A DNA stretch of 64,000 nt from Minisyncoccota bacterium. GTDB lineage: Bacteria; Patescibacteriota; Minisyncoccia; Phycocordibacterales; UBA9973. The DNA lies in contig JBAZVG010000001.1 in the NCBI GenBank assembly GCA_041661005.1, forward strand, positions 735,515 to 799,514, in the 5' to 3' direction. Below, piece by piece: positions 205 through 15,156 of this stretch. A program made the translations under genes and the position numbers. The notes under the pieces are model-generated. The model did not search any database and was not told the origin of the DNA. It was given only the letters and a program-made list of their open reading frames with translations. The number at the start of each line of letters is the position of its first letter. Position 1 is the stretch's first letter.

Positions 205-735
205 ATGAAAAAAATACAAAATGGTGCAGCGTTTGTTTTTATTGTTTCTGTTTTTATTTTAACAGCTATTTCTATTTGTGGAGTCTGGAAAATATTTAGT
301 GACGATGTGATAACTAAATCTATTCAAACATTTGGCTTGCTTTCTATAGTCGCTGTTATTGTCATCATTGCTGGTAGATTTGTAGATTCTCGTGAGCAAC
401 TAGCTGTCTCTAGTACTGGTGCTGTTGAAACCGTGCCATTTTCTAACCCAGCTTTTACGACTACTAGAAAAATTACATTAGCAATTTTAATTATTTCCAT
501 TTCTCTTTTAGCGTTTCTGGGAGTGCTGGCGATTTGGGATGTTTTATCTGGAGAAATACTCAATAAATCTTTATCTAGTATTGCGATCATAGCATTTGCT
601 TCTGTCGTCGTTGTTATAACTTGTCTAGAGAGAGAAAAACATAAATTAATGCATCAAAAAATGTCTGGAGGAGTTATCCTTCTTATGTTGCTATTTGGTT
701 GGTTTTTTCTTTCCTTTCTTTTTAGGCTTTTTTAA
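205..735 (+). CDS. hypothetical integral membrane protein
   Basis: The 176-aa ORF has several hydrophobic helix-like segments. No motif was recognised. Confidence 0.4.
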   Translation: MKKIQNGAAFVFIVSVFILTAISICGVWKIFSDDVITKSIQTFGLLSIVAVIVIIAGRFVDSREQLAVSSTGAVETVPFSNPAFTTTRKITLAILIISISLLAFLGVLAIWDVLSGEILNKSLSSIAIIAFASVVVVITCLEREKHKLMHQKMSGGVILLMLLFGWFFLSFLFRLF

Positions 736-780: not shown

Positions 781-3700
781 ATGGCTGAAAATGTAAATAA
801 TAGTAAATCAGACCCGCTTCGCCAAAGCAGAAGCGAGGCGAGTGTAGCACTTCCCGTCTCTGCTGGGAGCTCCGACGCGGCAAAGCGCGAAGAGGTGGTT
901 TTAGAATTTTGGCGTGAGAATAAAATTTTTGAAAAATCTGTAAAAGCCAGAGAAGGAAGAAAAGAATTTGTTTTTTACGATGGACCGGTTACGGCAAACT
1001 CTAAACCAGTTCTTCACACCATGGTGCCTTTTTCTTTTAAAGATGTAATCCCGAGATATAAAACCATGCGAGGTTATCACGTACGTCGTAAAGGTGGGTG
1101 GGATACACACGGTTTACCAGTAGAACTACAGATAGAAAAAAAACTAGGATTCAAGTCAAAAATAGATATTGAAAATTATGGTATTGCCGCTTTTAATAAA
1201 TTGTGCAAAGACAGTGTTTGGGAGTACATAGGGTTATGGAAAAGTTTTACTGAACGGATGGGTTATTGGGCTGATCAGGAAAATCCGTATGTGACATACC
1301 ACAATGATTATATTGAATCCGTATGGAACGTGGTAAAAAAAATAAATGATCGTAAATTGCTCTATAAAGATTACAAAGTTGTGCCTTGGTGTCCTAGATG
1401 TGGCACAGCTTTATCTTCGCATGAACTTGCGCAAGGGTATGAAGATGTAAAAGATTTGTCGGTGTATGTGAAATTCAAAATTATCGGATTTCCGAAAGCA
1501 TATTTCTTGGCTTGGACGACTACGCCGTGGACTCTGCCGGGAAATGTTGCTCTCGCTGTCGGTAAAGACATTATTTATGTGGAAGCGAAAGTAAAAGATG
1601 AAATTTTAGTGCTTGCCAAAGAACGACTTTCTGTAATCACTGATCCTTATGAAATTATTGCCGAGCATAAGGGAAGCGAAATGGTTGGTATGCAATATGA
1701 ACCGCTTTTTCCTTATCTCAATGAAACTATTTCGGGAAGCGAAAAATCAAAACTAGAAAAAGCATACAAAGTATATACTGCTGATTTTGTAAATACAGCA
1801 GATGGAACAGGCATTGTGCATACGGCTGTCATGTATGGTCAGGACGATTTTGTGCTTGGAACGCAAGTTGGCTTGCCAAAACATCACCTTGTGGATCTGG
1901 AAGGAAAATTTCTGAAGGGAGCTGGGTTTTTGGAAGCTAGATTTGTCAGAGAGACTGACCAGAATGGAAAACCGACTCTCGCGGTAGATATAATTGAGGA
2001 TTTAAAGAAAAGAAATTTATTTTTCAAGCAGGAAAATTACAAGCACTCTTATCCGCACTGCTGGCGCTGTCATACGGCGCTCATTTATTATGCGCGGGAT
2101 TCTTGGTATATCCGAATGTCTTCTCCCGCAATCAAAAAGCAATTAATCAGTGAAAATAAAAAAATAAATTGGGAGCCGGCGCATATTCGTGACGGACGTT
2201 TTGGCGAATGGCTACGGGAGATTAAAGATTGGGCGATATCGAGGGAGAGATATTGGGGGACGCCACTTCCGGTCTGGACATGTGAATCTTGCAAGGAGAT
2301 CAATGTTTTGGGAAGTCTGGATGAAATAAAATCAAAGACCAAAAAATCTGGCAATCAGTATTTTATCGCTCGTCATGGCGAGGCTATGAGTAACGTTAAA
2401 GGGGTTGTTGATTCAAAGGGTGACGAGAAGAACAATATGACTGAAAGGGGAATACAAGATGTAAAAAATAATATAAAAAGATGCAAGGAAACTCATTTTG
2501 ATTTCATTTTTAGCTCTCCGATGCTTCGCACTAGAGAAACAGCTTCAATCATTGCTGATACGATTGGTTTTGACAAAAATAAAATTATTTTCGATGAACG
2601 TTTATGGGAATTCAAAGTAGGAGATCTCGATGGAAAAAATATAGAAGAGTATTGTAAATATATCAAAACCATATCGGATTATTTTTCAACTCCGCTTCCA
2701 AGTGGAGAGAGTCGCCTCTCAGTGCATAAACGCATGGGAGATTTTATATATGAGTTGGAAAAGAAATATTCAAATAAAAAAATATTAATAATTTCTCATG
2801 GCGACCCTACTTTGGCAATGTTTTTAATTGCAAAGGGCTATACAAAAAGTGAGATAAAAAAAGAAGAAAATGATTTCAAATATTTACAGACAGGTGAGAT
2901 CAGAGAGCTTGATTTTGTCCCTCTTCCACACAATGAAGATTATGAATTGGATTTACATAAACCGTATATTGATGAGATTCCACTTACGTGTAAATGTGGT
3001 GGGAAATTAATTCGCACAAAAGAGGTGATGGACGTCTGGTTTGATTCCGGATGCATGCCTTTTGCGCAAGATCATTATCCCTTCGACTTCGCTCAGGGCG
3101 AGCCTTTTGAAAATGTGAAACTACCGTATCCGGCGGATTTTATTTGCGAAGCGATAGATCAGACTCGCGGTTGGTTTTACACTTTGCACGCTATTGGAAT
3201 TTTAATGGGGAAGGGTCAAGCATATAAGAATGTAATCTGCTTGGGGCACTTGCTCGATGCCAAAGGTAAAAAGATGTCTAAGTCTTTGGGTAATATCGTC
3301 GATCCTTGGAGCATGATAGAAAAATATGGTGTGGATACGCTTCGTCTGTGGATGTATTCAGTCAATCAGCCTGGAGAGTCAAAGAATTTTGATGAGAAAA
3401 CTGTCGCTCTGCTTTATAGTCAAGTTTTCGGGTTGCTTTACAATGTGCTTGCCTTTTATGAACTTTATAGAGATAAAAAAATAGAGACAAATGAACGGCC
3501 TAAGTCTAAAAATATTCTAGACAAATGGATTTTAGCTAGACTGGACGAACTAATAAAACTTTCTACGGAAAATCTGGACAATTATAAATTGCTTGAACCA
3601 GTGCGGGGAGTTAGGGATTTTATCAATGATCTGTCTACTTGGTATTTGCGTCGTTCACGCGAGCGAATTAAATCCGCCTCCGCTCAAGGCTCCGGCGAGA

Positions 3701-4866
3701 CAAGAGATGGAGACAATGCTAAAATGACACTTTATTTTGTATTGAAAACTTTGGCAAAAATTATGGCTCCTTTTGCTCCGTTTACAGCAGAGGATGTTTG
3801 GTCGAAATTGAGGAATGATGACGATAAAGAAAGTGTGCATCTGGAAAAATGGCCGACGGTGTCAAAGATGCCTTTTGACATATTTAGGAAGAAAAAAACA
3901 ACCATCTTGAAAGATATGAAAGTTGTTCGCGAAATCGTTACTCTCGGCTTAGAAGCTCGTCAAAGAGCGAAAATCCAAGTCCGTCAGCCACTCAACCAAT
4001 TACGGATTAAGAATCACGAATTAGGCGACGTCCATGTAGAATTAATAAAAGACGAATTGAATGTGAGAGAAGCTGTTTTTGATAATTCTATTTTAAGTGA
4101 AGTGGAGCTTGATACAAATATTACTCCGGCGCTCAAAGCAGAAGGAGAGTATCGAGAATTTATGAGAGAGCTTCAAGATGAAAGAAAAAAAATGGGTTTG
4201 AATCCGGGTGACAAAATGCCACTTAGTATTGATAAGATTTATAAAAAATATAAAATAATGCTCTCTTTGCAAAATCACATGCTTCGGGTGGCAGCGGTTG
4301 CGTCTCTCATCTGTGATAATTTTGACGAGCCTTTAAATAAAGAAGAAGTTGTTACTGCTTGTTTGCTTCATGATATGGGGAATATCATAAAATCAGACTT
4401 GAGTTACTTTCCTGAATTTTTAAAGCCTGAAGGTCTGGAATATTGGCAGAGCGTCAAAGATGAATATATCGCAAAATATGGAAATAACGAGCATGAGGCG
4501 ACAATAAAGATTATCAAAGAAATTGGTTTATCTGACCAAATGGTCAGACTTGCGGGTAAAATTGAATTTTCTCTTTTATGTATTCATCGAGATAGTGATG
4601 AGATGAGTATTAAGATAACTCACTATTGTGATTTACGGGTCGGCCCTCATGGAGTTTTGTCGTATGACGAGCGGATGGATGAAGGAAAAAAGAGATATGA
4701 GGGAAGAACTGACGTTTTTGCTGTTCAAGGACGTGAAGAACTCATAGTCTGCGGAAAAGAAATGGAAAAACAAATTTTCGAAAAATGCAAGATAAAACCG
4801 GAAGATATAAATGACGAAACAGTAACGCCTTTAATTTTAGAACTACGAGACTTCATGATAAAATAA
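781..4866 (+). CDS. ileS: isoleucyl-tRNA synthetase carrying an internal histidine-phosphatase (PGAM-like) domain and a C-terminal HD phosphohydrolase domain
   Basis: Class I aaRS signatures are present: PxxxxHxGH-like 'PVLHTM', KMSKS ('KMSKSLGN'), 'TTTPWTLPGN' (editing), 'DVWFDSG' and 'WYLRRSRER'. The insert at about 2330-2930 carries RHGE...SHGD histidine-phosphatase motifs. The C-terminus at about 4240-4866 has the H..HD..D motifs of an HD domain. Confidence 0.85.
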   Translation: MAENVNNSKSDPLRQSRSEASVALPVSAGSSDAAKREEVVLEFWRENKIFEKSVKAREGRKEFVFYDGPVTANSKPVLHTMVPFSFKDVIPRYKTMRGYHVRRKGGWDTHGLPVELQIEKKLGFKSKIDIENYGIAAFNKLCKDSVWEYIGLWKSFTERMGYWADQENPYVTYHNDYIESVWNVVKKINDRKLLYKDYKVVPWCPRCGTALSSHELAQGYEDVKDLSVYVKFKIIGFPKAYFLAWTTTPWTLPGNVALAVGKDIIYVEAKVKDEILVLAKERLSVITDPYEIIAEHKGSEMVGMQYEPLFPYLNETISGSEKSKLEKAYKVYTADFVNTADGTGIVHTAVMYGQDDFVLGTQVGLPKHHLVDLEGKFLKGAGFLEARFVRETDQNGKPTLAVDIIEDLKKRNLFFKQENYKHSYPHCWRCHTALIYYARDSWYIRMSSPAIKKQLISENKKINWEPAHIRDGRFGEWLREIKDWAISRERYWGTPLPVWTCESCKEINVLGSLDEIKSKTKKSGNQYFIARHGEAMSNVKGVVDSKGDEKNNMTERGIQDVKNNIKRCKETHFDFIFSSPMLRTRETASIIADTIGFDKNKIIFDERLWEFKVGDLDGKNIEEYCKYIKTISDYFSTPLPSGESRLSVHKRMGDFIYELEKKYSNKKILIISHGDPTLAMFLIAKGYTKSEIKKEENDFKYLQTGEIRELDFVPLPHNEDYELDLHKPYIDEIPLTCKCGGKLIRTKEVMDVWFDSGCMPFAQDHYPFDFAQGEPFENVKLPYPADFICEAIDQTRGWFYTLHAIGILMGKGQAYKNVICLGHLLDAKGKKMSKSLGNIVDPWSMIEKYGVDTLRLWMYSVNQPGESKNFDEKTVALLYSQVFGLLYNVLAFYELYRDKKIETNERPKSKNILDKWILARLDELIKLSTENLDNYKLLEPVRGVRDFINDLSTWYLRRSRERIKSASAQGSGETRDGDNAKMTLYFVLKTLAKIMAPFAPFTAEDVWSKLRNDDDKESVHLEKWPTVSKMPFDIFRKKKTTILKDMKVVREIVTLGLEARQRAKIQVRQPLNQLRIKNHELGDVHVELIKDELNVREAVFDNSILSEVELDTNITPALKAEGEYREFMRELQDERKKMGLNPGDKMPLSIDKIYKKYKIMLSLQNHMLRVAAVASLICDNFDEPLNKEEVVTACLLHDMGNIIKSDLSYFPEFLKPEGLEYWQSVKDEYIAKYGNNEHEATIKIIKEIGLSDQMVRLAGKIEFSLLCIHRDSDEMSIKITHYCDLRVGPHGVLSYDERMDEGKKRYEGRTDVFAVQGREELIVCGKEMEKQIFEKCKIKPEDINDETVTPLILELRDFMIK

Positions 4867-4870
4867 GAGG

Positions 4871-5509
4871 ATGAAAATAAGAAAACTCGGGCATTGTTGT
4901 TTGGTAATAGAAATAAATGGCAAAAAGATAATGACAGATCCGGGGTCTTATACTGTTGAGGAACAAAGTAGGGAATCCAATGTCGATCTGATTTTAATCA
5001 CACACGAACATCCAGACCATTTTCATTTGGAGTCTTTAAAAAAGATTTTGATAAATAATTCTAGTGCTATGGTCATTACAAACAACGGAGTAGGGAAATT
5101 ATTGAACGAGGTTGGAATTAAATATAAAGTTTTAGAAAATAAAATCCCAGAAGAATTTTTCGGGGTGGAGCTTGAGGCTCATGATTGCAAACATGAAGAA
5201 ATTTTTGAAGAGATAGGGCAGGTGCAGAATACTGGATACTTTATTGGTCAGAAATTATTTTATCCTGGGGACGCTTTTTATAATCCCGGTAAACCTGTTG
5301 AAATTTTAGCATTGCCGGTAGCTGGTCCATGGACTAGCATAAAAAATGCAATGAGATATGCTTTAGACATAAAACCAAAAGTTTGTTTTCCTGTGCACGA
5401 TGGAATGCTTAGATCATTTGGAACTTCTCACAGAGTGCCTGCGTTAGTTTTGCCAAAATTCAATATAATTTTTAAAAATTTCGAAGATAATAAAGAAGAA
5501 GAATTCTAA
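4871..5509 (+). CDS. MBL-fold metallo-hydrolase
   Basis: An HxHxDH motif ('ITHEHPDH') is present, and the beta-lactamase-fold hydrolase pattern follows. Confidence 0.7.
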   Translation: MKIRKLGHCCLVIEINGKKIMTDPGSYTVEEQSRESNVDLILITHEHPDHFHLESLKKILINNSSAMVITNNGVGKLLNEVGIKYKVLENKIPEEFFGVELEAHDCKHEEIFEEIGQVQNTGYFIGQKLFYPGDAFYNPGKPVEILALPVAGPWTSIKNAMRYALDIKPKVCFPVHDGMLRSFGTSHRVPALVLPKFNIIFKNFEDNKEEEF

Positions 5510-6090
5510 TGCACCACATTTATCACACAGAGGGAATAATATTGAGTAGCCGAAATTTTGGGGAAGCGGGGAAATATTATAGTGTTTTTACTCGTGATTT
5601 GGGGATGATTCATGCTTCCGCTCAGGGGGTGCGAAAAATGTCTTCAAAATTGCGTTTTGTGTTGCAAGATTTTTCTTATCTCAAGATTGATTTAGTCCAA
5701 GGCAAAAATATTTTTCGAATAACGAACGCGTCAAAGACAAACACACTTGAGCGCATCACCAGACAGCCTGAAAACTTTAAAGTCTTTGCGAATGTCGCGC
5801 GTTTATTGAAACGCTTGTTGGCCGGTGTCGAACCAAATGAAACTTTGTTCACAGATTTAGTGAATGGTTTGTTAATTTTAGAAAAGGCAAAGACTAAAGA
5901 AGATCTGAGCAACATCGAAGTAATCATAGTTCTGCGCATATTAAACAATCTAGGATATATCGGTGACAATGAAATATTGCAGAATCTTATAAAGTCTCCT
6001 TTCGAGGAAGATTTGATATTCGAAGTTTCGAAATCGAGAATTCATGTGTTACGTCAGATAAATAAAGCGCTCAAAGAGACGCATTTGTAA
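5509..6090 (+). CDS. recO: DNA repair protein RecO-like (short)
   Basis: The N-terminal OB-fold pattern 'EGIILSSRNFGEAGKYYSVFTRDLGMIHASAQGVRK' matches the RecO N-terminus. The start codon overlaps the upstream stop. Confidence 0.5.
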   Translation: MHHIYHTEGIILSSRNFGEAGKYYSVFTRDLGMIHASAQGVRKMSSKLRFVLQDFSYLKIDLVQGKNIFRITNASKTNTLERITRQPENFKVFANVARLLKRLLAGVEPNETLFTDLVNGLLILEKAKTKEDLSNIEVIIVLRILNNLGYIGDNEILQNLIKSPFEEDLIFEVSKSRIHVLRQINKALKETHL

Positions 6091-6160
6091 AAATAGCATA
6101 AATGATTTCAGATTCGTAGAAATTTTTTTAAATGCAATTTTGATGTTATAATGCTCCTAT

Positions 6161-8110
6161 ATGTCATTAAACGATAGGAATAAATTAAACAGGATAGAGG
6201 AGCTCAAAAGCAAACTTTTTAGTAAAAGTTACCAGACGAAAATGGAGCACCGAGACAGATTTACACCCTCGAGAAGGAATGATATTCCAGATGTTTGGGA
6301 AGGCGGGAAAAATATCGGGGCTAATTCTGTTTCAAATCGAGGCAGGTTTTTTATGAAGACCTCTGTATTCAAAAGTTTTTTCCTGTTTTCTTTGGTTTTT
6401 TTTGGTTTAACTCTTATTTATGCTTCTTACGTGTTTTTTGCCGGTGGCAATACTGTTTCGAGCGACAACATAGAGATCTCCATACTCGGAAATAATTTCA
6501 CTGCCGGTGGGGAAGATCTGTCGCTCATTGTGGGCATTGCAAATAAAAATAATTCCTCACTTGATTTAGTTGATCTTGTTGTGGAGTATCCCAAAGGCTC
6601 TTCCAATTCGGAAACGGGTTTGTCAACTGGGACAGAAAGGTTTCGAGAATCCTTGGGGGCGATTCCTGCTGGAGCGGTGCGTAATGAGAATATAAAAGTG
6701 GTGCTTTTTGGCGAACAAGGGGCTGTGCGTCCTATCAAAGTTTCTATTGAATATCGGGTGGAAGGTTCGAATGCTATTTTTGTGAAAGAAAAAAAATATG
6801 AAGTTACGATCAGTTCCACGCCCTTGAATCTTTCCATTGATGCTCCTCTTACAATAAGCCCAAATCAAGACATCACTCTGAACGTGAAGGCGACCCTGAA
6901 CGCTACTTATCCAGTTTCAAAAATACTTCTTAAGTTAGATTATCCGATCGGGTTCCAATTTGTATCATCTGTTCCAGCTCCTTCTCTCGGAAACAATGTC
7001 TGGAGTTTGGGAGATCTGGCTCCCGGCGCAGGGCGTAATATTTCTATAACTGGAAAAATGTTTGATGTTGTCGATGGAGAAGAAAAGACGTTTCACATAT
7101 CGAGCGGATCGCAGTCAGCGGGAGATAAGTCCATGATCGACATGGTTTTCAACTCCTTATCACATACTGTTGAAATAAAAAAACCTTTCATCGAAGCAAA
7201 GCTTTTTGTAAACGGCGCATATCAGAGAGAATATTCCACAAATGCGAAAACTCCATTTCGTGGAGAGATCAGGTGGACAAACAACCTAGACACCAAGGTG
7301 AACGATCTTGAAATCAGAGCGAAGATTTCTGGCAATGCCGTTGATCGTAGAACGATAAACTCTGATCAAGGTTTCTATAATTCATCGACTGACACAATAA
7401 TTTGGGACAAGAATTCCAAGGATGATTTCAGGGAAATAAATCCAGGAGATTCTGGTTCTGTAAGTTTTTCCATCTCTCCACTCTCATTGTTTTCTGTCGC
7501 GAGCGGGATGCTCACCGATCCTATTATCAGCGTCAATATTTCTATTTCTGGCAAACAGTTGTTGGCTGGCTATGCAACTACGGATTTGAATAATTCTGAT
7601 TCTTCGGTTATTAAAATTATTTCTGATGTTGGATTTGCGACTAAGGCGCTTTATTATTCTGGACCTTTTACAAATAATGGCCCTGTTCCTCCTAGAGTTG
7701 AACAGGAAACATCTTATACAATAGTCTGGTCTCTTTCGAATACTGCCAACAATATTTCAAAAGGCGTGGTTCGTTCCAGCATTCCTTCGTGGGTAAAATT
7801 TATGGATTCCGTCTCGCCAACCAGTGAAGACCTAGTTTTCAATTCCTCCACTAGAGAAATCACTTGGAATATAGGCAGGATTCCTAAAGGCACTGGCATC
7901 ACCGAAGCTCTACGCAGTGTCTCCTTTCAGATTGCGATTTCTCCTTCACTTTCTCAGGTCGGAACTATTCCAGTTATCATAAATGACAGTATTTTGACTG
8001 GACATGATGATTTTGCTAATGTAGACGTGAGAGTAAGTAAAAATGCGCTCCGCACGCAATTAGATAACGACCCTCAGTTTCCTCCTGCTGGAGGCACGAT
8101 AGTTGAATAA
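6161..8110 (+). CDS. hypothetical membrane-anchored extracellular protein
   Basis: It has a cytoplasmic N-terminus, a single TM helix (FFLFSLVFFGLTLIYASYVFF), and a ~550-aa Ser/Thr/Asn-rich ectodomain. No catalytic motif was recognised. Confidence 0.5.
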   Translation: MSLNDRNKLNRIEELKSKLFSKSYQTKMEHRDRFTPSRRNDIPDVWEGGKNIGANSVSNRGRFFMKTSVFKSFFLFSLVFFGLTLIYASYVFFAGGNTVSSDNIEISILGNNFTAGGEDLSLIVGIANKNNSSLDLVDLVVEYPKGSSNSETGLSTGTERFRESLGAIPAGAVRNENIKVVLFGEQGAVRPIKVSIEYRVEGSNAIFVKEKKYEVTISSTPLNLSIDAPLTISPNQDITLNVKATLNATYPVSKILLKLDYPIGFQFVSSVPAPSLGNNVWSLGDLAPGAGRNISITGKMFDVVDGEEKTFHISSGSQSAGDKSMIDMVFNSLSHTVEIKKPFIEAKLFVNGAYQREYSTNAKTPFRGEIRWTNNLDTKVNDLEIRAKISGNAVDRRTINSDQGFYNSSTDTIIWDKNSKDDFREINPGDSGSVSFSISPLSLFSVASGMLTDPIISVNISISGKQLLAGYATTDLNNSDSSVIKIISDVGFATKALYYSGPFTNNGPVPPRVEQETSYTIVWSLSNTANNISKGVVRSSIPSWVKFMDSVSPTSEDLVFNSSTREITWNIGRIPKGTGITEALRSVSFQIAISPSLSQVGTIPVIINDSILTGHDDFANVDVRVSKNALRTQLDNDPQFPPAGGTIVE

Positions 8111-9488
8111 AGATATGGCAGACAAAAATAAAAAAGAAGAAAAGAAAAATGATTTGATGGAAAAAATTGTCTCGCTATGCAAGAGGCGGGGGTTTGTTTA
8201 TCAAGGTTCAGAAATATATGGTGGACTAGGAGGGACTTACGATTGGGGGCATTTTGGCGTGGCGTTGAAAAATAATATCAAACAATCTTGGTGGAAAAAG
8301 TTTGTTGACTCTCGCAGAGACATGTATGGAGTGGATGCGGCTATTTTAATGCGCCAGGAAGTCTGGCAAGCGTCTGGGCACGTGGCGGGTTTTGCTGATC
8401 CGTTGGTTGAATGTAAAAAATGTGGAGAAATGTTTAGAATGGATGATGGTAAGTTATCAAAAGAAATGATGGATCACCAAGAAAAAAAACATCTTGGGTC
8501 GGTAAACTCTTATGAGTTGGTAGAATTAGTAAAACAGAATTTTACCAATGAGCGCAAATTCAACATGATGTTTCAGACGAAAGTTGGCGCTTCAGATGAT
8601 TCCAGCGCGATATCATACTTGCGTCCGGAAACGGCGCAAGGGATGTTTGTGAATTTCAAAAATACCGTCGATGCTTTTCATCCGAAACTTCCTTTTGGTA
8701 TGGCGCAGATCGGAAAGGCTTTTAGAAATGAAATAACTCCTCGTGATTTCCTTTTCCGTCAGCGTGAATTCGAGCAGATGGAAATAGAATACTTCATCAG
8801 ACCCGGCGATTGGGAAAAGTATTTTGAATATTGGAAGGATGAAATGTTGTCCTGGATGGAAGAAGTGGGTTTCGATATGGCAAAAGTCCACGAGCTCGAG
8901 GTGGCAAAGGAAGACAGGGCGCATTATTCCAGTCGAACGGTTGATTTTGAATTTGATTACCCGTTTGGGAAAAAAGAACTTTTCGGTCTCGCATATAGGA
9001 CGGATTTTGATTTAAAGAATCACAAACTTGAATATATAGATGAGGATGAGAAAGAAAAGATAATTCCACATGTCATAGAACCGACTTTTGGTGTGGACCG
9101 AGCTGTGCTCGCCTTGCTTCTTTCAGTTTATGTTGAAGACCAAAAAGGTGAAGAAATGCGTTCGTATTTAAAATTCAAACCCAGCATTGCGCCAATAGTT
9201 TGCGCCGTCTCGCCACTTCTAAAGAACAAGCCCGAACTTGTCGAATATGCAAATGTTAAAGTCTATGCGCCACTCAAGGCAGAATTTGGCAGGGTAGCAT
9301 GGGATGATAATGGCAACATCGGCAAGCGTTATCGCCGTCAAGATGAGATCGGCACGCCGTTTTGCATCGTGGTTGATTTTGATACATTGACTGATGACAC
9401 AGTAACCGTTCGTGACCGTGATACAGGCAAGCAGGAGAGAATAAAAGTGGCTGATTTACAAAATTATATAAAAGAGAAGATAAGTTAA
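8103..9488 (+). CDS. glyQS: glycyl-tRNA synthetase (alpha2 dimeric type)
   Basis: The GlyRS N-terminal signature 'RRGFVYQGSEIYGGLGGTYDWGHFG' is present, together with class II motif 2 'FRNEITPRDFLFRQREFEQME'. Confidence 0.85.
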   Translation: MNKDMADKNKKEEKKNDLMEKIVSLCKRRGFVYQGSEIYGGLGGTYDWGHFGVALKNNIKQSWWKKFVDSRRDMYGVDAAILMRQEVWQASGHVAGFADPLVECKKCGEMFRMDDGKLSKEMMDHQEKKHLGSVNSYELVELVKQNFTNERKFNMMFQTKVGASDDSSAISYLRPETAQGMFVNFKNTVDAFHPKLPFGMAQIGKAFRNEITPRDFLFRQREFEQMEIEYFIRPGDWEKYFEYWKDEMLSWMEEVGFDMAKVHELEVAKEDRAHYSSRTVDFEFDYPFGKKELFGLAYRTDFDLKNHKLEYIDEDEKEKIIPHVIEPTFGVDRAVLALLLSVYVEDQKGEEMRSYLKFKPSIAPIVCAVSPLLKNKPELVEYANVKVYAPLKAEFGRVAWDDNGNIGKRYRRQDEIGTPFCIVVDFDTLTDDTVTVRDRDTGKQERIKVADLQNYIKEKIS

Positions 9489-12628: not shown

Positions 12629-13705
12629 ATGTTTGAAAGAAGCACTTCCACTTCTGTTTATGTAACTACTGGGACAATGGTTCGAGCGGTTCTTGTCCTG
12701 CTTTGCGTATTTTTGTTCTGGTTTTTGCGAGATTTGGTTTTAGTAGTTTTGACCTCCATCGTGATTGCTTCTTTTGTAGAATCAGCAGTTTCTTACTTTA
12801 ACAAATTCAAAATCAATAGAGTGCTTGGGATTGTGATACTTTATGTTTTTGCGATTTCTATTTTTGCTGGATTATTTTATCTTTTTGCTCCGCTTCTGAT
12901 AACAGAAATTTACAATTTTTCCATTTTTATTTCAACGTATGTTCCAGGTGTTTCTTTCTTGAATTTTTTTCAAAATGAAGCATTTTCTGGCGCAAAAGAC
13001 ATAGTGAGTTCCTTGGGTGGCAGTTTCTCGATCACTACGTTGTTTTCGGTATCCAAGGCTTTTGTGTTGAATCTCTCGGGGGGATTTTTTCAGACCCTTT
13101 CTGTCGCTTTCGGAAGCGTCTTTAATTTTATATTAATTATTCTTATTTCTTTTTATCTTTCAATTCAAGAAAAGGGAATTGAAAATTTTCTCCGACTTAT
13201 TTTCCCGATTCAGCATGAGGATTATGTGGTGGATCTCTGGGAGCGTTCTCGTCGCAAAATCGCCCTTTGGATGAAAGGGCAAGTGGTTTTGGGAATAGTC
13301 GTGGCAGTTCTCATTTATTTGATTTTGTCACTTCTCGGTATAGATTATGCCCTTCTTTTGGCTATAATCGCAGGGATAATGGAGCTGGTTCCTTATGGCA
13401 TCTGGGTTGCTTTGATTCCGGCTTTTGCCTTTTCTTATCTTTCTGATGGGATTTCAAGCGCTTTGATGGTGGCTGGCGCTTACCTCATTATTCATCAATT
13501 TGAAGTTTTTCTTTTTGCTCCGCTTATTATCAAAAAAATAGTAGGTCTTTCTCCGATTGTCATAATCCTGTCTGTTCTGATTGGTTTTGAATTAGGCGGA
13601 ATATGGGGCGGAGTTCTCGCTATTCCAGTGGCTGTGATCGTGATGGAATTTTTGAGCGATATAGAAAAAAATAAGATCCTAGCTCGCACCAGTAGCAAAC
13701 AATGA
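12629..13705 (+). CDS. AI-2E family transporter (PerM-like)
   Basis: The ~8-TM architecture, length and hydrophobic pattern are typical of UPF0118/AI-2E proteins. Confidence 0.5.
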   Translation: MFERSTSTSVYVTTGTMVRAVLVLLCVFLFWFLRDLVLVVLTSIVIASFVESAVSYFNKFKINRVLGIVILYVFAISIFAGLFYLFAPLLITEIYNFSIFISTYVPGVSFLNFFQNEAFSGAKDIVSSLGGSFSITTLFSVSKAFVLNLSGGFFQTLSVAFGSVFNFILIILISFYLSIQEKGIENFLRLIFPIQHEDYVVDLWERSRRKIALWMKGQVVLGIVVAVLIYLILSLLGIDYALLLAIIAGIMELVPYGIWVALIPAFAFSYLSDGISSALMVAGAYLIIHQFEVFLFAPLIIKKIVGLSPIVIILSVLIGFELGGIWGGVLAIPVAVIVMEFLSDIEKNKILARTSSKQ

Positions 13706-15156
13706 TCAGTAAAGAAAAAAAACCTTTCTATATCACAACCACGCTTCCTTATGTAAATGCAGATCTTCACATGGGTCATGCTCTTGAGTTCGTGCGGGCA
13801 GACGTTATCGCTCGATATAAAAAACTTCAAGGGTTTGACGTGTTTTTCAATAGTGGGACGGATGAGCATGGAATGAAAATATATGAAAAGGCCACATCTG
13901 TTGGAAAAAATCCGCAGGAGTTTGTCGACGAAAATTTTCTAAAGTTCAAAGAATCAGTGAAAATTTTTGGTATGGATGAGAGTATTTTGCATTTTGTGCG
14001 CACTACAGATGAATGTCACATAAAATCAACGCAAGAATTTTGGAGACGAGTTGATAAAAATGGTTATATCTATAAAAAAAATTACGAAGCGAAATATTGT
14101 GTCGGTTGTGAGGAAAATAAAAATGATTCTGAGCTTGTAAACGGTGAATGCCCAGTTCATCCCGGTAAAAAAATAGAAATTATTAGTGAAGAAAATTATT
14201 TTTTCAAATACAGCGAATTTGCAGACAGGTTACTGAATTTTTATTCAGATAATCCAAATTTTGTAATACCAGATTTTCGTTTTAATGAAATAAAAGCCTT
14301 TGTGGCGGGGGGATTGCAAGATTTTTCCATATCACGGCTAAAAAGCAAAATGCCTTGGGGTATAGAAGTGCCGGGGGATAAAGATCATGTTATGTATGTG
14401 TGGTTTGACGCGCTTACAAACTATATATCCACCTTAGGTTGGCCGGAGAATCAGGAACAATTTGAAAGATTTTGGATAAATGGAAATCCTGTCCAATATT
14501 GCGGTAAAGATAATACTCGTTTCCAGTCTGCCATGTGGCAGGCCATGTTGATGGCGGCTGGTTTACCGAATTCTCGCCAGATAGTAGTGAATGGTTTTAT
14601 TACTGCAGATCATGGCATAAAAATGTCTAAGACACTAGGCAATGTGGTTGATCCCAAAGAAATTGTAAAAGAATATGGGACAGACGCTCTGCGATATTTT
14701 CTTTTGCGTGAGATTTCTTCGTTTGAAGATAGTCCATTTACAATAGAGCGCTTTAAGGATGCCTATAATTCCAATTTGGCCAATGGACTCGGGAATTTAA
14801 CTTCAAGAATTTTAACTCTTTCAGAAAAGTATTTAGACAAGTGCCCGGAGATTCCGGAAAAATCAGATTTTACCGAATACTTTAATTTTTTTGAAAAATT
14901 TGATATCAAACAAGCTGTTGATTTTATTTGGGATGAAATAGGAGGATTGGATAAATTTATTCAGGAGACAGAACCGTTTAAAGTAGTAAAAGCAGATGCA
15001 AAAAAAGGCAGAGTTTTAATTTCGGATATGGTTCTCCGTTTGTATAAAATTGCCAGAATGTCAAATCTAATAATACCGGAAACATCAGAAAAAATAAAAA
15101 AACTCATTCAAGAAAATAAAAAACCAGAGAAGCCATTATTCCCACGAAAAGACTAA
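13702..15156 (+). CDS. metG: methionyl-tRNA synthetase (short form)
   Basis: The HIGH-region 'TTLPYVNADLHMGHALE' and KMSKS ('KMSKTLGN') motifs are present. A CxxC...CPVH knuckle is also present. Confidence 0.85.
   Translation: MISKEKKPFYITTTLPYVNADLHMGHALEFVRADVIARYKKLQGFDVFFNSGTDEHGMKIYEKATSVGKNPQEFVDENFLKFKESVKIFGMDESILHFVRTTDECHIKSTQEFWRRVDKNGYIYKKNYEAKYCVGCEENKNDSELVNGECPVHPGKKIEIISEENYFFKYSEFADRLLNFYSDNPNFVIPDFRFNEIKAFVAGGLQDFSISRLKSKMPWGIEVPGDKDHVMYVWFDALTNYISTLGWPENQEQFERFWINGNPVQYCGKDNTRFQSAMWQAMLMAAGLPNSRQIVVNGFITADHGIKMSKTLGNVVDPKEIVKEYGTDALRYFLLREISSFEDSPFTIERFKDAYNSNLANGLGNLTSRILTLSEKYLDKCPEIPEKSDFTEYFNFFEKFDIKQAVDFIWDEIGGLDKFIQETEPFKVVKADAKKGRVLISDMVLRLYKIARMSNLIIPETSEKIKKLIQENKKPEKPLFPRKD

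What the first reader, a model, noticed from the sequence alone, without database searches (positions are those of the whole stretch)
781..4866. IleRS carrying an internal histidine-phosphatase domain and a C-terminal HD phosphohydrolase domain
The 1361-aa ileS is about 300-400 aa longer than typical. A complete PGAM-like histidine phosphatase module (RHGE...R...H...SHGD) is inserted between the 'PVWTCESC' and 'DVWFDSG' segments of the catalytic core. An HD-domain (H..HD..D) module is appended after the anticodon-binding region. aaRSs make Ap4A, and HD-domain proteins of the YqeK type hydrolyse it. HD domains also degrade (p)ppGpp. Two phosphohydrolase modules fused to an essential synthetase suggest built-in nucleotide-signal turnover or an unusual editing or moonlighting activity. 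The function is speculative.
Basis: partly seen in the sequence, partly recalled or inferred. Interest (0 to 1): 0.65.

Follow-up and report, generated by a model that had tools for sequence, protein, structure and literature searches.

The report
Isoleucyl-tRNA synthetase with two captured phosphohydrolases
An essential protein-synthesis enzyme (isoleucyl-tRNA synthetase) of a tiny uncultured Paceibacteria bacterium has absorbed two neighbouring phosphate-cleaving enzymes into its own chain; the fusion is real, is shared by hundreds of species, was not found in the literature searched, and its purpose is unknown.

Summary
ORF 781-4866 (1361 aa) is a full type-2 IleRS (TIGR00392: 865 bits, cutoff 621). 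A complete branch-1 histidine phosphatase (residues 517-714) is nested in a CP2 loop that is about 3 residues long in P. megaterium IleRS2. An HD phosphohydrolase (1146-1361) is fused to the C-terminus.

It is not a chimera. 119 of the 120 closest homologs carry the insert. At least 567 stretches in species-representative Paceibacteria genomes encode it. 41 of the 120 also carry the HD fusion, always with the same junction.

Both modules have free-standing counterparts next to ileS:
- In Staskawiczbacteria-like lineages the phosphatase is a separate gene just upstream of an insert-less ileS (5 of 6 loci).
- In close relatives the HD gene lies just downstream of ileS.

Catalytic residues are invariant (phosphatase 80/80 and 119/119; HD H..HD..D). 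Some relatives carry 2-4 tandem phosphatase copies, and one lost the insert.

Substrates remain unknown, because no curated subfamily threshold is reached. My best guess is active small-molecule (nucleotide-type) phosphohydrolases working alongside aminoacylation.

The architecture was not found in the searched literature. I class it as a new variant of a known kind.

The parts
781..4866 (+). ileS ORF, 1361 aa plus stop: a three-module polypeptide (IleRS2 + nested histidine phosphatase + C-terminal HD hydrolase). Public record MFA6077220.1, Candidatus Paceibacterota MAG, on an 813-kb contig.
781..2328 (+). IleRS N-terminal part (residues 1-516): first half of the HUP/Rossmann core, the CP1/editing domain (about residues 219-426) and the start of CP2. 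Editing motifs AWTTTPWTLPGN and DGTGIVHTA..YGQDDF are conserved.
   Evidence: E 1e-230 to PmIleRS2 8c8u/8c8w; editing-domain PDB hits 1wk8/1wny at residues 219-426
1009..1020 (+). Class I 'HIGH' signature position, here V77-L-H-T80. This is a derived variant of the GXHH form seen in some IleRS2.
   Evidence: PMC10485003 for GXHH
2281..2292 (+). First Cys pair (C501, C504) of the CP2 zinc knuckle that brackets the insertion.
   Evidence: all four Cys present in 107/120 homologs
2329..2922 (+). Nested module (residues 517-714). It consists of a Lys-rich linker (KSKTKKSGN, 517-525) and a complete branch-1 histidine phosphatase (Pfam 528-694). Catalytic residues are R531, H532 (nucleophile), N538, R583, E610, R651 and H673.
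   Evidence: pLDDT 95; TM 0.75-0.78 to PspA/PhoE
2923..4215 (+). IleRS C-terminal part (residues 715-1145). It holds the second Cys pair (C737/C739, nt 2989-2997), DVWFDSG, the second half of the HUP core, KMSKS (831-835, nt 3271-3285), Anticodon_1 (914-1071), ARD2 and the truncated ARD3.
4174..4200 (+). Retained wobble-base (G34) recognition pocket: Q1132, R1135, K1136 and L1140 correspond to PmIleRS2 Q961, R964, K965 and L969. It ends 6 residues before the HD module begins.
   Evidence: bioRxiv 10.64898/2026.02.03.703510
4216..4863 (+). C-terminal HD-superfamily phosphohydrolase module (residues 1146-1361). M1146 corresponds to the start codon of the free-standing HD gene of relatives. Metal ligands are H1166, H1197, D1198 and D1284. 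The additional His H1238 and H1269 are present in this protein.
   Evidence: (pLDDT 94)
4871..5509 (+). Downstream MBL-fold metal-dependent hydrolase gene (212 aa). It is part of the conserved gene block, 4 nt after the ileS stop.
5509..9488 (+). Rest of the conserved syntenic block: recO (5509-6090), a 649-aa DUF11/CLIPPER-like protein (6161-8110) and glyS (8103-9488).

Best explanation
The ORF is a genuine three-enzyme polypeptide. It arose when a type-2 isoleucyl-tRNA synthetase captured two phosphohydrolase genes that were its operon neighbours.

Shown:
1. A PhoE/CobC/PspA-like branch-1 histidine phosphatase is a separate gene immediately upstream of ileS in sister Parcubacteria lineages. 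Here it is nested in the CP2 zinc-knuckle loop of the catalytic domain. This looks like essentially one event, now shared by several hundred Paceibacteria species.
2. In a subclade, a ~216-aa HD-superfamily gene lying just downstream of ileS was fused once, by an in-frame deletion. The deletion removed the last ~55 aa of ARD3 and joined the HD start codon 6 residues after the retained wobble-base pocket.
3. The synthetase keeps KMSKS, the editing motifs and the anticodon determinants. Both hydrolase modules keep every canonical catalytic residue.

Inferred: all three activities are live. The two hydrolases act on small phosphorylated molecules rather than on protein or tRNA. The most likely substrates are nucleotide-type phosphoesters or phosphoanhydrides produced or consumed around the aminoacylation reaction (AMP, ADP, ApnA-type by-products, possibly PPi). 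Physical linkage to IleRS would give co-localised, stoichiometric turnover.

Sub-confidences: architecture and evolutionary origin about 0.9; both modules catalytically active about 0.75; substrates being nucleotide-type and functionally coupled to IleRS about 0.3. The overall figure given (0.4) is for the whole statement, including the inferred part.
For: Architecture:
- Domain scans and PDB alignment.
- Recurrence: 119/120 closest homologs carry the insert and 41/120 carry HD.

Origin of the HD module:
- Free-standing 216-aa HD proteins are 55-77% identical to the fused module.
- They lie 1 nt after ileS in L001, and after an intervening HAD gene in L003/L004 and L006/L007. Downstream synteny is the same as in the window.
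- The junction is identical in 37/37 scorable fused proteins.
- M1146 aligns with Met1 of the free-standing protein.

Origin of the phosphatase:
- Free-standing 189-195-aa proteins score E 1e-42 to 1e-52 against the insert profile.
- They lie 1-98 nt upstream of an insert-less ileS of 931-990 aa in 5 of 6 loci.
- Nested and free forms split almost cleanly: 129/133 fit one bipartition.

Activity:
- R, H, G, N, R, E, R and H are invariant in 119/119 and 80/80 sequences, and intact in nearly every copy of the 2-4x tandem arrays.
- HD H1166, H1197, D1198 and D1284 are conserved in 99-100% of 142 sequences.
- Both models are high-confidence (pLDDT 94-95).

Small-molecule type:
- The nearest solved relatives are PhoE, CobC (substrate is a nucleoside-5'-phosphate analogue), PspA, TIGAR and a riboflavin-pathway phosphatase.
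- HD profile hits go to HD_3/YfbR-like/HDIG. Fold hits go to YqeK-type and uncharacterised HD hydrolases, and there is a PHROG dATP-triphosphohydrolase hit.
- A third phosphatase superfamily (HAD-IA, PGP/PpaX-like) joins the same cluster in some genomes.
Against: - No substrate is identified. Every curated equivalog (dPGM, CobC, PspA, SixA, YfbR-like, HDIG) scores below its cutoff.
- Only IleRS carries the modules. MetRS and GlyRS in the same window are plain, which is odd for general by-product clearance.
- From my own knowledge, IleRS is not among the strongest Ap4A producers.
- The HD module sits at the anticodon end of the enzyme, about 70 A from the synthetic site in IleRS-tRNA complexes (distance from PMC11685878).
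- HD adjacency and fusion are confined to a subclade. 0 of 80 sampled species loci have an HD or HAD gene within 6 kb.
- One lineage (P0100) lost the phosphatase, so it is dispensable for IleRS itself.
- The insert evolves much faster (37-45% identity) than the core (70-80%).
- The HIGH signature is VLHT, so full synthetase activity is itself an inference.
- Geometry between active sites could not be measured.
Confidence: 0.4

Rival explanations
1. Co-expression fusion without mechanistic coupling. The phosphatase and the HD hydrolase are ordinary housekeeping or salvage enzymes (for example nucleotidases of a nucleotide-auxotrophic symbiont). They happened to sit in the ileS operon and were welded to it during genome streamlining. 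Linkage would give only co-regulation, not a shared reaction.
For: - Free-standing versions exist and presumably work alone.
- The phosphatase was lost once without loss of the gene.
- The insert diverges fast, at 37-45% identity against 70-80% for the core.
- HD association is restricted to a subclade.
- The syntenic block also holds unrelated genes such as recO, argS and glyS.
Against: - Nesting a 198-aa domain inside the catalytic domain of an essential enzyme is not a simple stop-codon loss, yet it is retained in hundreds of species.
- The nested domain has been amplified in tandem 2-4 times inside the same loop, with all catalytic residues kept.
- The nested forms gained a near-invariant Lys-rich linker that free forms lack.
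- Two independent hydrolase genes both ended up inside the same synthetase.
Confidence: 0.3
2. tRNA-directed phosphoesterases. One or both modules act on tRNA-Ile bound to the synthetase. The CP2-nested phosphatase would remove a 3'- or 2'-phosphate, or open a 2',3'-cyclic phosphate, at the acceptor end. Alternatively the HD module would act at the anticodon loop. This would be end-healing coupled to charging.
For: - Both modules are grafted onto tRNA-contacting regions. CP2 lies next to the catalytic core. The HD module starts 6 residues after the G34 pocket.
- There is precedent for HD domains in tRNA enzymes. The bacterial GlyRS beta subunit (7eiv) appears among the fold hits. The CCA-adding enzyme HD has phosphatase and cyclic-phosphodiesterase activity (my own knowledge).
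- The conserved Lys-rich linker could contact RNA.
Against: - All close solved relatives of the phosphatase are small-molecule enzymes.
- No RNA ligase or kinase partner is present in the loci examined.
- Four tandem copies make little sense for a single tRNA end.
- The HD module cannot reach the 3' end in cis, because the anticodon-to-CCA distance is about 70 A (PMC11685878).
- No fold match to RNA-repair phosphoesterases reached E <= 0.001.
Confidence: 0.15
3. Non-catalytic structural modules. The domains would serve only as tRNA-binding or scaffolding elements. For example, the HD module would structurally replace the deleted half of ARD3.
For: - The HD module replaces ~55 aa of ARD3, so some structural substitution is implied.
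- C-terminal remodelling of IleRS is a known evolutionary theme (bioRxiv 10.64898/2026.02.03.703510).
Against: - The full catalytic sets are invariant across hundreds of sequences, while surrounding positions drift to 37-45% identity.
- Pseudo-enzymes normally lose such residues.
Confidence: 0.05
4. Assembly chimera or frameshift artefact that joins separate genes.
For: - In close relatives ileS and the HD gene are separate and only 1 nt apart. A single-base error could in principle fuse them.
Against: - The fused form lacks ~55 aa of the unfused IleRS, so it is not a simple read-through.
- The same junction occurs in 37/37 scorable fused homologs from different assemblies.
- The phosphatase is flanked in frame on both sides by IleRS sequence in 119 homologs.
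Confidence: 0.01

Closest known systems
Type-2 isoleucyl-tRNA synthetase (IleRS2), e.g. Priestia megaterium IleRS2 (PDB 8C8U/8C8V/8C8W)
   Same: - Full-length homology at E about 1e-230, with the same domain order: HUP core, CP1/editing, CP2, ARD1-3.
- KMSKS is present.
- The G34 pocket Q..RK...L is retained.
- The family's common GIHH motif matches the GXHH variant described for some IleRS2 (PMC10485003).
   Different: - It carries a 198-aa enzyme nested in a CP2 loop that is about 3 residues long in PmIleRS2.
- The distal ~55 aa of ARD3 are replaced by an HD hydrolase.
- The HIGH position reads VLHT in the window protein.
IleRS with an appended N-acetyltransferase domain (NCBIfam NF040702, ileS_w_GNAT)
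   Same: It is a precedent for a bacterial IleRS that carries an extra enzymatic domain.
   Different: - The extra domain is different (GNAT) and its position is different.
- The window protein scores 335 bits against a cutoff of 1999, so it is not a member.
Broad-specificity / small-molecule branch-1 histidine phosphatases: PhoE (1EBB/1H2E), CobC alpha-ribazole phosphatase (6NRU), PspA phosphoserine phosphatase (4IJ5)
   Same: - Same fold (TM 0.75-0.78).
- Full catalytic set (RHG, R, E, H).
- Phosphatase-type 'L.E...G.(F/W)(E/D)G' segment rather than the mutase 'ERHYG'.
- Evidence: the ERHYG signature is from my own knowledge.
   Different: - Only 22-28% identity, and no equivalog cutoff is reached.
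- It is nested inside another enzyme, or encoded next to ileS.
- The substrate is unknown.
Bifunctional RNase H / acid phosphatase (NCBIfam NF005567, Rv2228c type)
   Same: It is a precedent for a CobC-like histidine phosphatase fused to a nucleic-acid enzyme. It is hit by both the nested and the free-standing forms (54.6 and 80.5 bits).
   Different: - Scores are far below the cutoff of 326.
- That fusion is terminal, not a nested insertion, and the partner enzyme is different.
YqeK (COG1713) HD-domain Ap4A hydrolase (2O08, 2OGI, 8WMY)
   Same: - HD-superfamily all-helical fold of about 200 aa.
- Best TM-scores among the PDB hits (0.43-0.49).
- The window protein has two His between the HD dyad and the final Asp.
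   Different: - No sequence or profile match.
- The two extra His are present in only 84% and 65% of members and do not co-vary, whereas YqeK is defined by six conserved ligands (PMC8177086).
- The residue at HD+3 is an invariant Asn.
HD domains in tRNA enzymes: bacterial GlyRS beta subunit (7EIV) and the class II CCA-adding enzyme
   Same: These are HD-fold modules attached to proteins that bind tRNA.
   Different: - Only a marginal fold hit (E 1.2, TM 0.37).
- Those HD domains contact or service the acceptor end, whereas this one is attached at the anticodon end.

Membership tests
Isoleucyl-tRNA synthetase, type 2 (IleRS2) | Whole-protein match to the curated ileS equivalog model above its cutoff | tested here: met
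   TIGR00392 scores 865.2 bits against a cutoff of 621.4. E is about 1e-230 to PmIleRS2 and 1e-225 to T. thermophilus IleRS.
Isoleucyl-tRNA synthetase, type 2 (IleRS2) | Class I signature motifs: KMSKS, and HXGH (or the IleRS2-tolerated GXHH) | tested here: inconclusive
   KMSKS is present in 120/120 sequences. The HIGH position is V-L-H-T in the window protein and in 43/120 homologs; the others have GIHH, GTHH or ALHH. The third-position His that substitutes functionally in GXHH (PMC10485003) is kept, but the fourth His is Thr. Activity of this variant is untested.
Isoleucyl-tRNA synthetase, type 2 (IleRS2) | CP1 editing domain with conserved Thr-rich and GTG.VH...D motifs | tested here: met
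   AWTTTPWTLPGN and DGTGIVHTA.MYGQDDF are conserved in at least 90-98% of homologs. Editing-domain PDB entries match residues 219-426.
Isoleucyl-tRNA synthetase, type 2 (IleRS2) | Type-2 C-terminal organisation (ARD1-ARD3) with the G34-reading residues Q961/R964/K965/L969 | tested here: met
   Anticodon_1 and DUF5915 are present. Q1132, R1135, K1136 and L1140 align to those residues. The distal ~55 aa of ARD3 are missing and replaced by HD.
Histidine phosphatase superfamily, branch 1 (Pfam His_Phos_1) | Profile match above the gathering score | tested here: met
   94.3 bits against a cutoff of 21.7, E 9.6e-27. The PDB profile search gives PhoE at E 8e-22.
Histidine phosphatase superfamily, branch 1 (Pfam His_Phos_1) | Catalytic core: RHG nucleophile His, two Arg, Glu proton donor, second His | tested here: met
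   R531, H532, G533, N538, R583, E610, R651 and H673 are invariant in 119/119 homologs and 80/80 species loci.
Histidine phosphatase superfamily, branch 1 (Pfam His_Phos_1) | Alpha/beta PGM-like fold | tested here: met
   AF2 model at pLDDT 95.1. Foldseek gives TM 0.75-0.78, prob 1.00 to PspA and PhoE.
Cofactor-dependent phosphoglycerate mutase (dPGM) | Equivalog score above cutoff | tested here: not met
   The best dPGM model (NF038349) scores 83.2 bits against a cutoff of 225, and the others are lower. The segment after E610 is phosphatase-type, not ERHYG (sequence read directly; the signature is from my own knowledge).
CobC / PspA / SixA phosphatase subfamilies | Equivalog score above cutoff | tested here: not met
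   CobC TIGR03162 scores 63.4 (cutoff 162.9). PspA scores 56.2 (cutoff 350). SixA scores 25.7 (cutoff 74.5).
HD-domain metal-dependent phosphohydrolase superfamily | Profile match above the gathering score, and the H..HD..D metal ligands | tested here: met
   Pfam HD scores 32.4-35.5 bits against a cutoff of 22, in 25/25 members. H1166 is at 99%, H1197/D1198 at 100%, and D1284 is conserved at >=97% of 142 sequences. Only the first ~45 profile positions align.
HD-domain metal-dependent phosphohydrolase superfamily | All-helical HD fold matching solved members | tested here: inconclusive
YqeK-type Ap4A hydrolase | Six conserved ligands H..HD..H..H..D for a dinuclear site (PMC8177086) | tested here: inconclusive
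   The window protein has His at two intermediate positions (H1238, H1269). Across 142 members these are at 84% and 65% and do not co-vary: 77 have both, 42 only the first, 15 only the second, 8 neither. Equivalence to YqeK H83/H109 is not established.
YqeK-type Ap4A hydrolase | Detectable sequence or profile homology to YqeK | tested here: not met
   The profile search of the PDB at E <= 10 returns HDDC2 and an HDOD protein but no YqeK. Foldseek hits to 2ogi and 8wmy have E 0.11-0.33.
YfbR / HDDC2 5'-deoxynucleotidase | Family profile above cutoff | tested here: not met
   PF12917 YfbR-like scores 14.5-17.9 bits against a cutoff of 25.9. The HDDC2 PDB hit covers only 57 N-terminal residues at E 3e-3. 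The position equivalent to the catalytic Glu (HD+3) is an invariant Asn1201 (the role of the Glu is from my own knowledge).
RelA/SpoT/Mesh1 (p)ppGpp hydrolase | HD followed by an ED motif (HDxxED), and homology to RSH hydrolase domains | tested here: not met
   The sequence is HDMGNIIK. No Pfam or NCBIfam RSH hit was found. The MESH1 fold hit has E 0.84 and TM 0.30. The motif definition is from my own knowledge.

The most novel reading that the evidence does not exclude
The nested phosphatase and the fused HD hydrolase could be a previously unrecognised kind of aaRS accessory catalysis. They would be phosphohydrolase sites that act in cis on something generated on, or bound to, IleRS. Candidates are adenylate-derived dinucleoside polyphosphates, AMP or PPi product removal, or a phosphorylated or cyclic-phosphate tRNA-Ile end or anticodon-loop intermediate. 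Charging by IleRS in Paceibacteria would then be coupled to a phosphate-removal step. Tandem amplification of the phosphatase would tune its capacity.
Probability: 0.2. Interest if true: 0.85.

Novelty: new variant of a known kind. Interest (0 to 1): 0.6.

Why it matters
- Bacterial aminoacyl-tRNA synthetases rarely acquire new catalytic domains. An active enzyme nested inside the catalytic (CP2) region of an essential synthetase, and conserved across a whole class of candidate-phyla-radiation bacteria, is unusual.
- The series of arrangements (separate neighbouring genes, nested domain, tandem amplification, second fusion, secondary loss) is a clean natural record of how operon neighbours become one protein. 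It predicts a functional link between IleRS and phosphate-ester hydrolysis that nobody has tested.
- If the link is mechanistic, it would add a new type of accessory activity to the aaRS repertoire. It would also say something about nucleotide or tRNA economy in ultra-small symbionts.
- If the link is only co-expression, it is still a striking example of how tolerant CP2 is to insertions, and a ready-made site for engineering.
- The VLHT replacement of the HIGH signature also extends the known plasticity of that motif in IleRS2, which bears on mupirocin resistance.

Tried and rejected
1. Neighbour-joining tree of the IleRS core, to count HD fusion events. It gave 17 state changes. I rejected this as an artefact, because all 37 scorable fused proteins share one junction. 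Signal for the HD state and for the HIGH state is confined to opposite ends of the gene, which points to a star-like or mosaic phylogeny.
2. HIGH-variant (VLHT) correlation with the HD fusion. None was found.
3. HD or HAD genes near ileS across Paceibacteria generally. 0 of 80 sampled species loci had one, and the pipeline was verified on control loci. That association is therefore subclade-specific.
4. YqeK, SpoT, YfbR, dPGM, CobC, PspA and SixA membership. None was met.
5. Defence-system and phage family screens (PADLOC, PHROGs). Only marginal generic HD hits were returned.
6. Literature searches. 'isoleucyl-tRNA synthetase' + 'histidine phosphatase' gave 0 papers. aaRS + 'phosphoglycerate mutase' + 'domain fusion' gave 0. 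'tRNA synthetase' + Patescibacteria + 'HD domain' gave nothing relevant. The two most relevant IleRS2 papers do not mention phosphatase, HD or Patescibacteria.
7. A second IleRS in the window. The extra class I hit at 13702-15156 is MetRS.
9. A full-length model for inter-domain geometry was not possible, because of the 1200-aa limit and because no coordinates are returned.

Full report
**1. Observation**

The + strand carries one uninterrupted ORF, 781..4866, of 1361 aa. Pfam finds:
- tRNA-synt_1 in two stretches
- His_Phos_1 at residues 528-694 (E 9.6e-27, 94 bits, cutoff 21.7)
- Anticodon_1 at 914-1071
- DUF5915 at 1082-1156
- HD at 1165-1206 (E 1.3e-7, 32 bits, cutoff 22)

NCBIfam's ileS equivalog scores 865 bits against a cutoff of 621. 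The best solved relatives are the Priestia megaterium IleRS2 entries (8c8u/8c8w, E about 1e-230) and T. thermophilus IleRS.

In that alignment query 516 pairs with PmIleRS2 residue 474 and query 715 pairs with residue 478. A 198-aa segment (517-714) therefore replaces a loop of about three residues. The loop lies between the two Cys pairs of a zinc knuckle (C501/C504 and C737/C739; all four Cys are present in 107/120 homologs). It is about 35 residues before 'DVWFDSG'. In PmIleRS2 the catalytic HUP core is residues 40-168 and 513-632, with CP1 and CP2 in between (PMC10485003). The insertion is therefore in CP2.

**2. Not an artefact**

The exact protein is in NCBI (MFA6077220.1, Candidatus Paceibacterota MAG, 813-kb contig).
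- Of the 120 best homologs (59-73% identical, from NCBI, JGI, ENA and Logan), 119 carry the nested module and 41 also carry the C-terminal HD module.
These are in Nomura-, Vogel-, Lloyd-, Yonath-, Adler-, Kaiser- and Zambryskii-bacteria, Minisyncoccia and unnamed Paceibacterota.
- All 80 loci fetched have the order IleRS-N / phosphatase / IleRS-C in one ORF. The classification pipeline was checked on control loci.

**3. The phosphatase module**

A profile of 30 diverse inserts hits these PDB entries:
- B. stearothermophilus PhoE, E 8e-22
- CobC, E 2e-21
- phosphoserine phosphatase PspA, E 4e-21
- further hits to TIGAR, FBPase-2 and dPGMs

An AlphaFold model (pLDDT 95) superposes on PspA and PhoE with TM 0.75-0.78.

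The catalytic set is R531, H532, G533, N538, R583, E610, R651 and H673. It is invariant in 119/119 homologs and in 80/80 species loci. The rest of the module has drifted to 37-45% identity, against 70-80% for the synthetase core.

No curated subfamily threshold is reached: dPGM 83 (cutoff 225), CobC 63 (cutoff 163), PspA 56 (cutoff 350), SixA 26 (cutoff 75). It is a generic small-molecule-type branch-1 phosphatase with an unknown substrate.

**4. The HD module**

All 25 aligned members hit Pfam HD and HD_3, but only over the first ~45 profile positions. No NCBIfam model passes its cutoff (HDIG 21.8 bits, cutoff 27.6).

The model is all-helical with pLDDT 94. PDB fold matches are all HD proteins but weak. 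The best TM scores (0.43-0.49) go to the YqeK-type entries 2ogi and 8wmy, at E 0.1-0.3.

In 142 fused and free-standing members:
- H1166, H1197, D1198 and D1284 are conserved at 97-100%.
- Two more His columns between the dyad and the last Asp (H1238, H1269) are present in 84% and 65% of members and do not co-vary.

The HD review PMC8177086 diagnoses YqeK by six conserved ligands and mononuclear hydrolases by H..HD..D. This family fits the latter. The window protein itself does have both extra His. The motif after the dyad is HDMGNIIK, with an invariant Asn where YfbR-type nucleotidases have Glu.

**5. Where the modules came from**

HD module:
- A profile of the module finds 2245 proteins. Most are free-standing ~216-aa proteins, 55-77% identical to the fused module.
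- In L001 this gene starts 1 nt after the stop of a phosphatase-bearing ileS. It is followed by a serine-hydrolase gene (absent from the window), then MBL hydrolase, recO, a 649-aa protein and glyS, as in the window.
- In L003/L004 and L006/L007 a HAD-IA phosphatase gene sits between ileS and the HD gene.
- Window residues 1146-1361 align end to end with the free-standing protein P0130. M1146 falls on its Met1.
- Fused proteins lack the last ~55 aa of the unfused IleRS.
- All 37 scorable fused proteins share one junction, GLNPGDKM(P/A)(L/M)S..IYKKYKI. This was therefore a single in-frame deletion-fusion.

Phosphatase module:
- An exhaustive profile search finds 451 clusters (50% identity) at E <= 1e-30. 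They include complete free-standing proteins of 189-205 aa (sequences).
- Many of these are labelled Candidatus Staskawiczbacteria or Parcubacteria.
- In 5 of 6 loci examined the gene lies 1-98 nt upstream of an insert-less ileS of 931-990 aa. The order is argS, phosphatase, ileS, (small ORF), recO. The sixth locus is a 3-kb contig without ileS.
- Nested and free forms separate almost cleanly in a distance tree: 129/133 fit one bipartition, and one outlier is visibly a fragment of a nested copy.

Both extra modules of the window protein are thus former, or elsewhere current, operon neighbours of ileS. This is a double Rosetta-stone relationship.

**6. Variants that bear on function**

- Some IleRS relatives carry two to four tandem phosphatase copies in the same insertion, and essentially every copy keeps the catalytic residues.
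- One HD-fused lineage (P0100, locus L005) has lost the phosphatase. It is 79-81% identical to insert-bearing relatives and keeps a linker remnant 'KEKTKNK'.
- Nested copies share a near-invariant Lys-rich linker (K.KTKKSGN) that free copies lack.
- The HD adjacency and fusion are restricted to a subclade. None of the 80 sampled species loci has an HD or HAD gene within 6 kb.

**7. State of the synthetase**

- KMSKS is present in 120/120 homologs, and the editing motifs are conserved.
- Q1132, R1135, K1136 and L1140 align with PmIleRS2 Q961, R964, K965 and L969. Those residues read G34, and R964A lowers aminoacylation about 1000-fold (bioRxiv 10.64898/2026.02.03.703510).
- The HD module begins six residues after this pocket, at the anticodon end of the enzyme.
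- The HIGH position is unusual. Most family members have GIHH, the GXHH variant that gives IleRS2 mupirocin hyper-resistance (PMC10485003). The window protein and 43/120 homologs have VLHT or VFHT.
- This state does not track the HD fusion. Each state correlates only with its own end of the gene, which suggests mosaic alleles.
- No second IleRS is present in the window. The other class I enzyme is MetRS.

**8. Interpretation**

Shown:
- The polypeptide is a real fusion of IleRS2 with two phosphohydrolases of neighbouring-gene origin.
- The active-site residues of both are under strong purifying selection.

Inferred:
- Both are active enzymes.
- Because all near relatives are small-molecule enzymes, they most likely hydrolyse small phosphorylated compounds.

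My preferred reading (about 0.3) is nucleotide-type substrates linked to the aminoacylation reaction, such as AMP, ADP, ApnA or PPi. The reasons are that three different arrangements keep these genes with ileS, a HAD phosphatase joins the cluster in some genomes, and the nested domain is amplified in place.

The main rival (0.3) is co-expression without mechanistic coupling. It is supported by the free-standing forms, the fast drift of the insert, the one loss, and the subclade-limited HD association.

A tRNA-directed role (0.15) is suggested by the grafting sites and by HD precedents in tRNA enzymes. It is disfavoured by the small-molecule relatives, the tandem copies, and the ~70 A anticodon-to-CCA distance (PMC11685878).

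A purely structural role (0.05) conflicts with the invariant catalytic residues. An assembly artefact is excluded.

**9. Comparison with the known, and novelty**

The closest systems are:
- IleRS2 itself
- the NCBIfam 'ileS_w_GNAT' class, another IleRS with an extra enzyme domain
- PhoE/CobC/PspA phosphatases
- the RNase H/acid-phosphatase fusion
- YqeK and other HD hydrolases
- the HD domains of GlyRS-beta and CCA-adding enzymes

None has this architecture. Full-text searches found no paper describing a phosphatase- or HD-bearing IleRS. The two most relevant IleRS2 studies do not mention one. Database annotation calls the protein only 'class I tRNA ligase family protein'.

I rate it a new variant of a known kind, with interest 0.6. 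The anatomy and evolutionary history are clear and surprising for an aaRS, the function is open, and it is directly testable.

Noticed in passing
window 1009-1020 (residues 77-80): The class I HIGH signature reads V-L-H-T. Most relatives have GIHH/GTHH/ALHH, the GXHH type linked to mupirocin hyper-resistance in IleRS2, but 43/120 share VLHT or VFHT. The universally conserved fourth His is Thr. I found no description of this variant.
   Followed up: partly
window 781-4215, compared with homologs P0001-P0120: The HIGH-motif state correlates only with the N-terminal ~200 aa. The HD-fusion state correlates only with the last ~70 aa of the IleRS part. The middle of the gene tracks neither. This suggests recombination or mosaic ileS alleles among Paceibacteria.
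   Followed up: partly
proteins P0241, P0265, P0274, P0278, P0297, P0301, P0338 (no locus fetched): These IleRS relatives carry 2-4 tandem copies of the histidine phosphatase in the same insertion. Almost every copy keeps RHG..R..E..R..H.
   Followed up: partly
protein P0339 (no locus fetched): A 1066-aa protein combines an IleRS N-terminal part, an IS200-like Y1 transposase hit inside the editing region, one histidine phosphatase and a C-terminal GNAT acetyltransferase. It could be a degraded or chimeric gene, or another domain-accretion variant.
   Followed up: no
L005:5001-8513 (protein P0100): This HD-fused IleRS has secondarily lost the phosphatase. It is 79-81% identical to insert-bearing relatives, and its loop reads KEKTKNK-LPLNDKKELDLH. 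It is a natural deletion design for experiments.
   Followed up: yes
window 2329-2355 (residues 517-525): There is a near-invariant Lys-rich linker, K-x-K-T-K-K-S-G-N, at the N-terminal junction of nested phosphatases. Free-standing copies lack it. K519-T-K-K-S523 fits the K-x-x-K-S pattern of KMSKS. Its significance is unknown.
   Followed up: no
L003:9493-10092, L004:3897-4496, L006:5393-6004, L007:5393-6004: A HAD-IA hydrolase gene lies between ileS and the HD gene in some Nomurabacteria-like genomes. Its best hits (phosphoglycolate phosphatase, PpaX pyrophosphatase) are below cutoff. It is a third phosphatase superfamily in the same cluster.
   Followed up: partly
window 4871-9488 and loci L001, L003, L006, L008, L011, L013, L095, L096: A syntenic block is conserved across Parcubacteria: argS, [phosphatase], ileS, ..., recO, a ~650-aa DUF11/CLIPPER-like protein, glyS. 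In the window the MBL-fold hydrolase (4871-5509) and recO (5509-6090) share a base, and the 649-aa ORF overlaps glyS (8103 against 8110).
   Followed up: partly
window 2400-3000: G+C drops to 0.32-0.33 across the phosphatase insert, against 0.40-0.44 in the flanking IleRS core. This is consistent with its Lys/Asn/Ile-rich, fast-evolving sequence.
   Followed up: no
window 1-64000: ARAGORN finds no tRNA or tmRNA gene anywhere in the 64-kb window.
   Followed up: no
window 205-735: The ORF upstream of ileS encodes a 176-aa multi-pass membrane protein with no Pfam match. argS, which precedes the cluster in many relatives, is not here.
   Followed up: no
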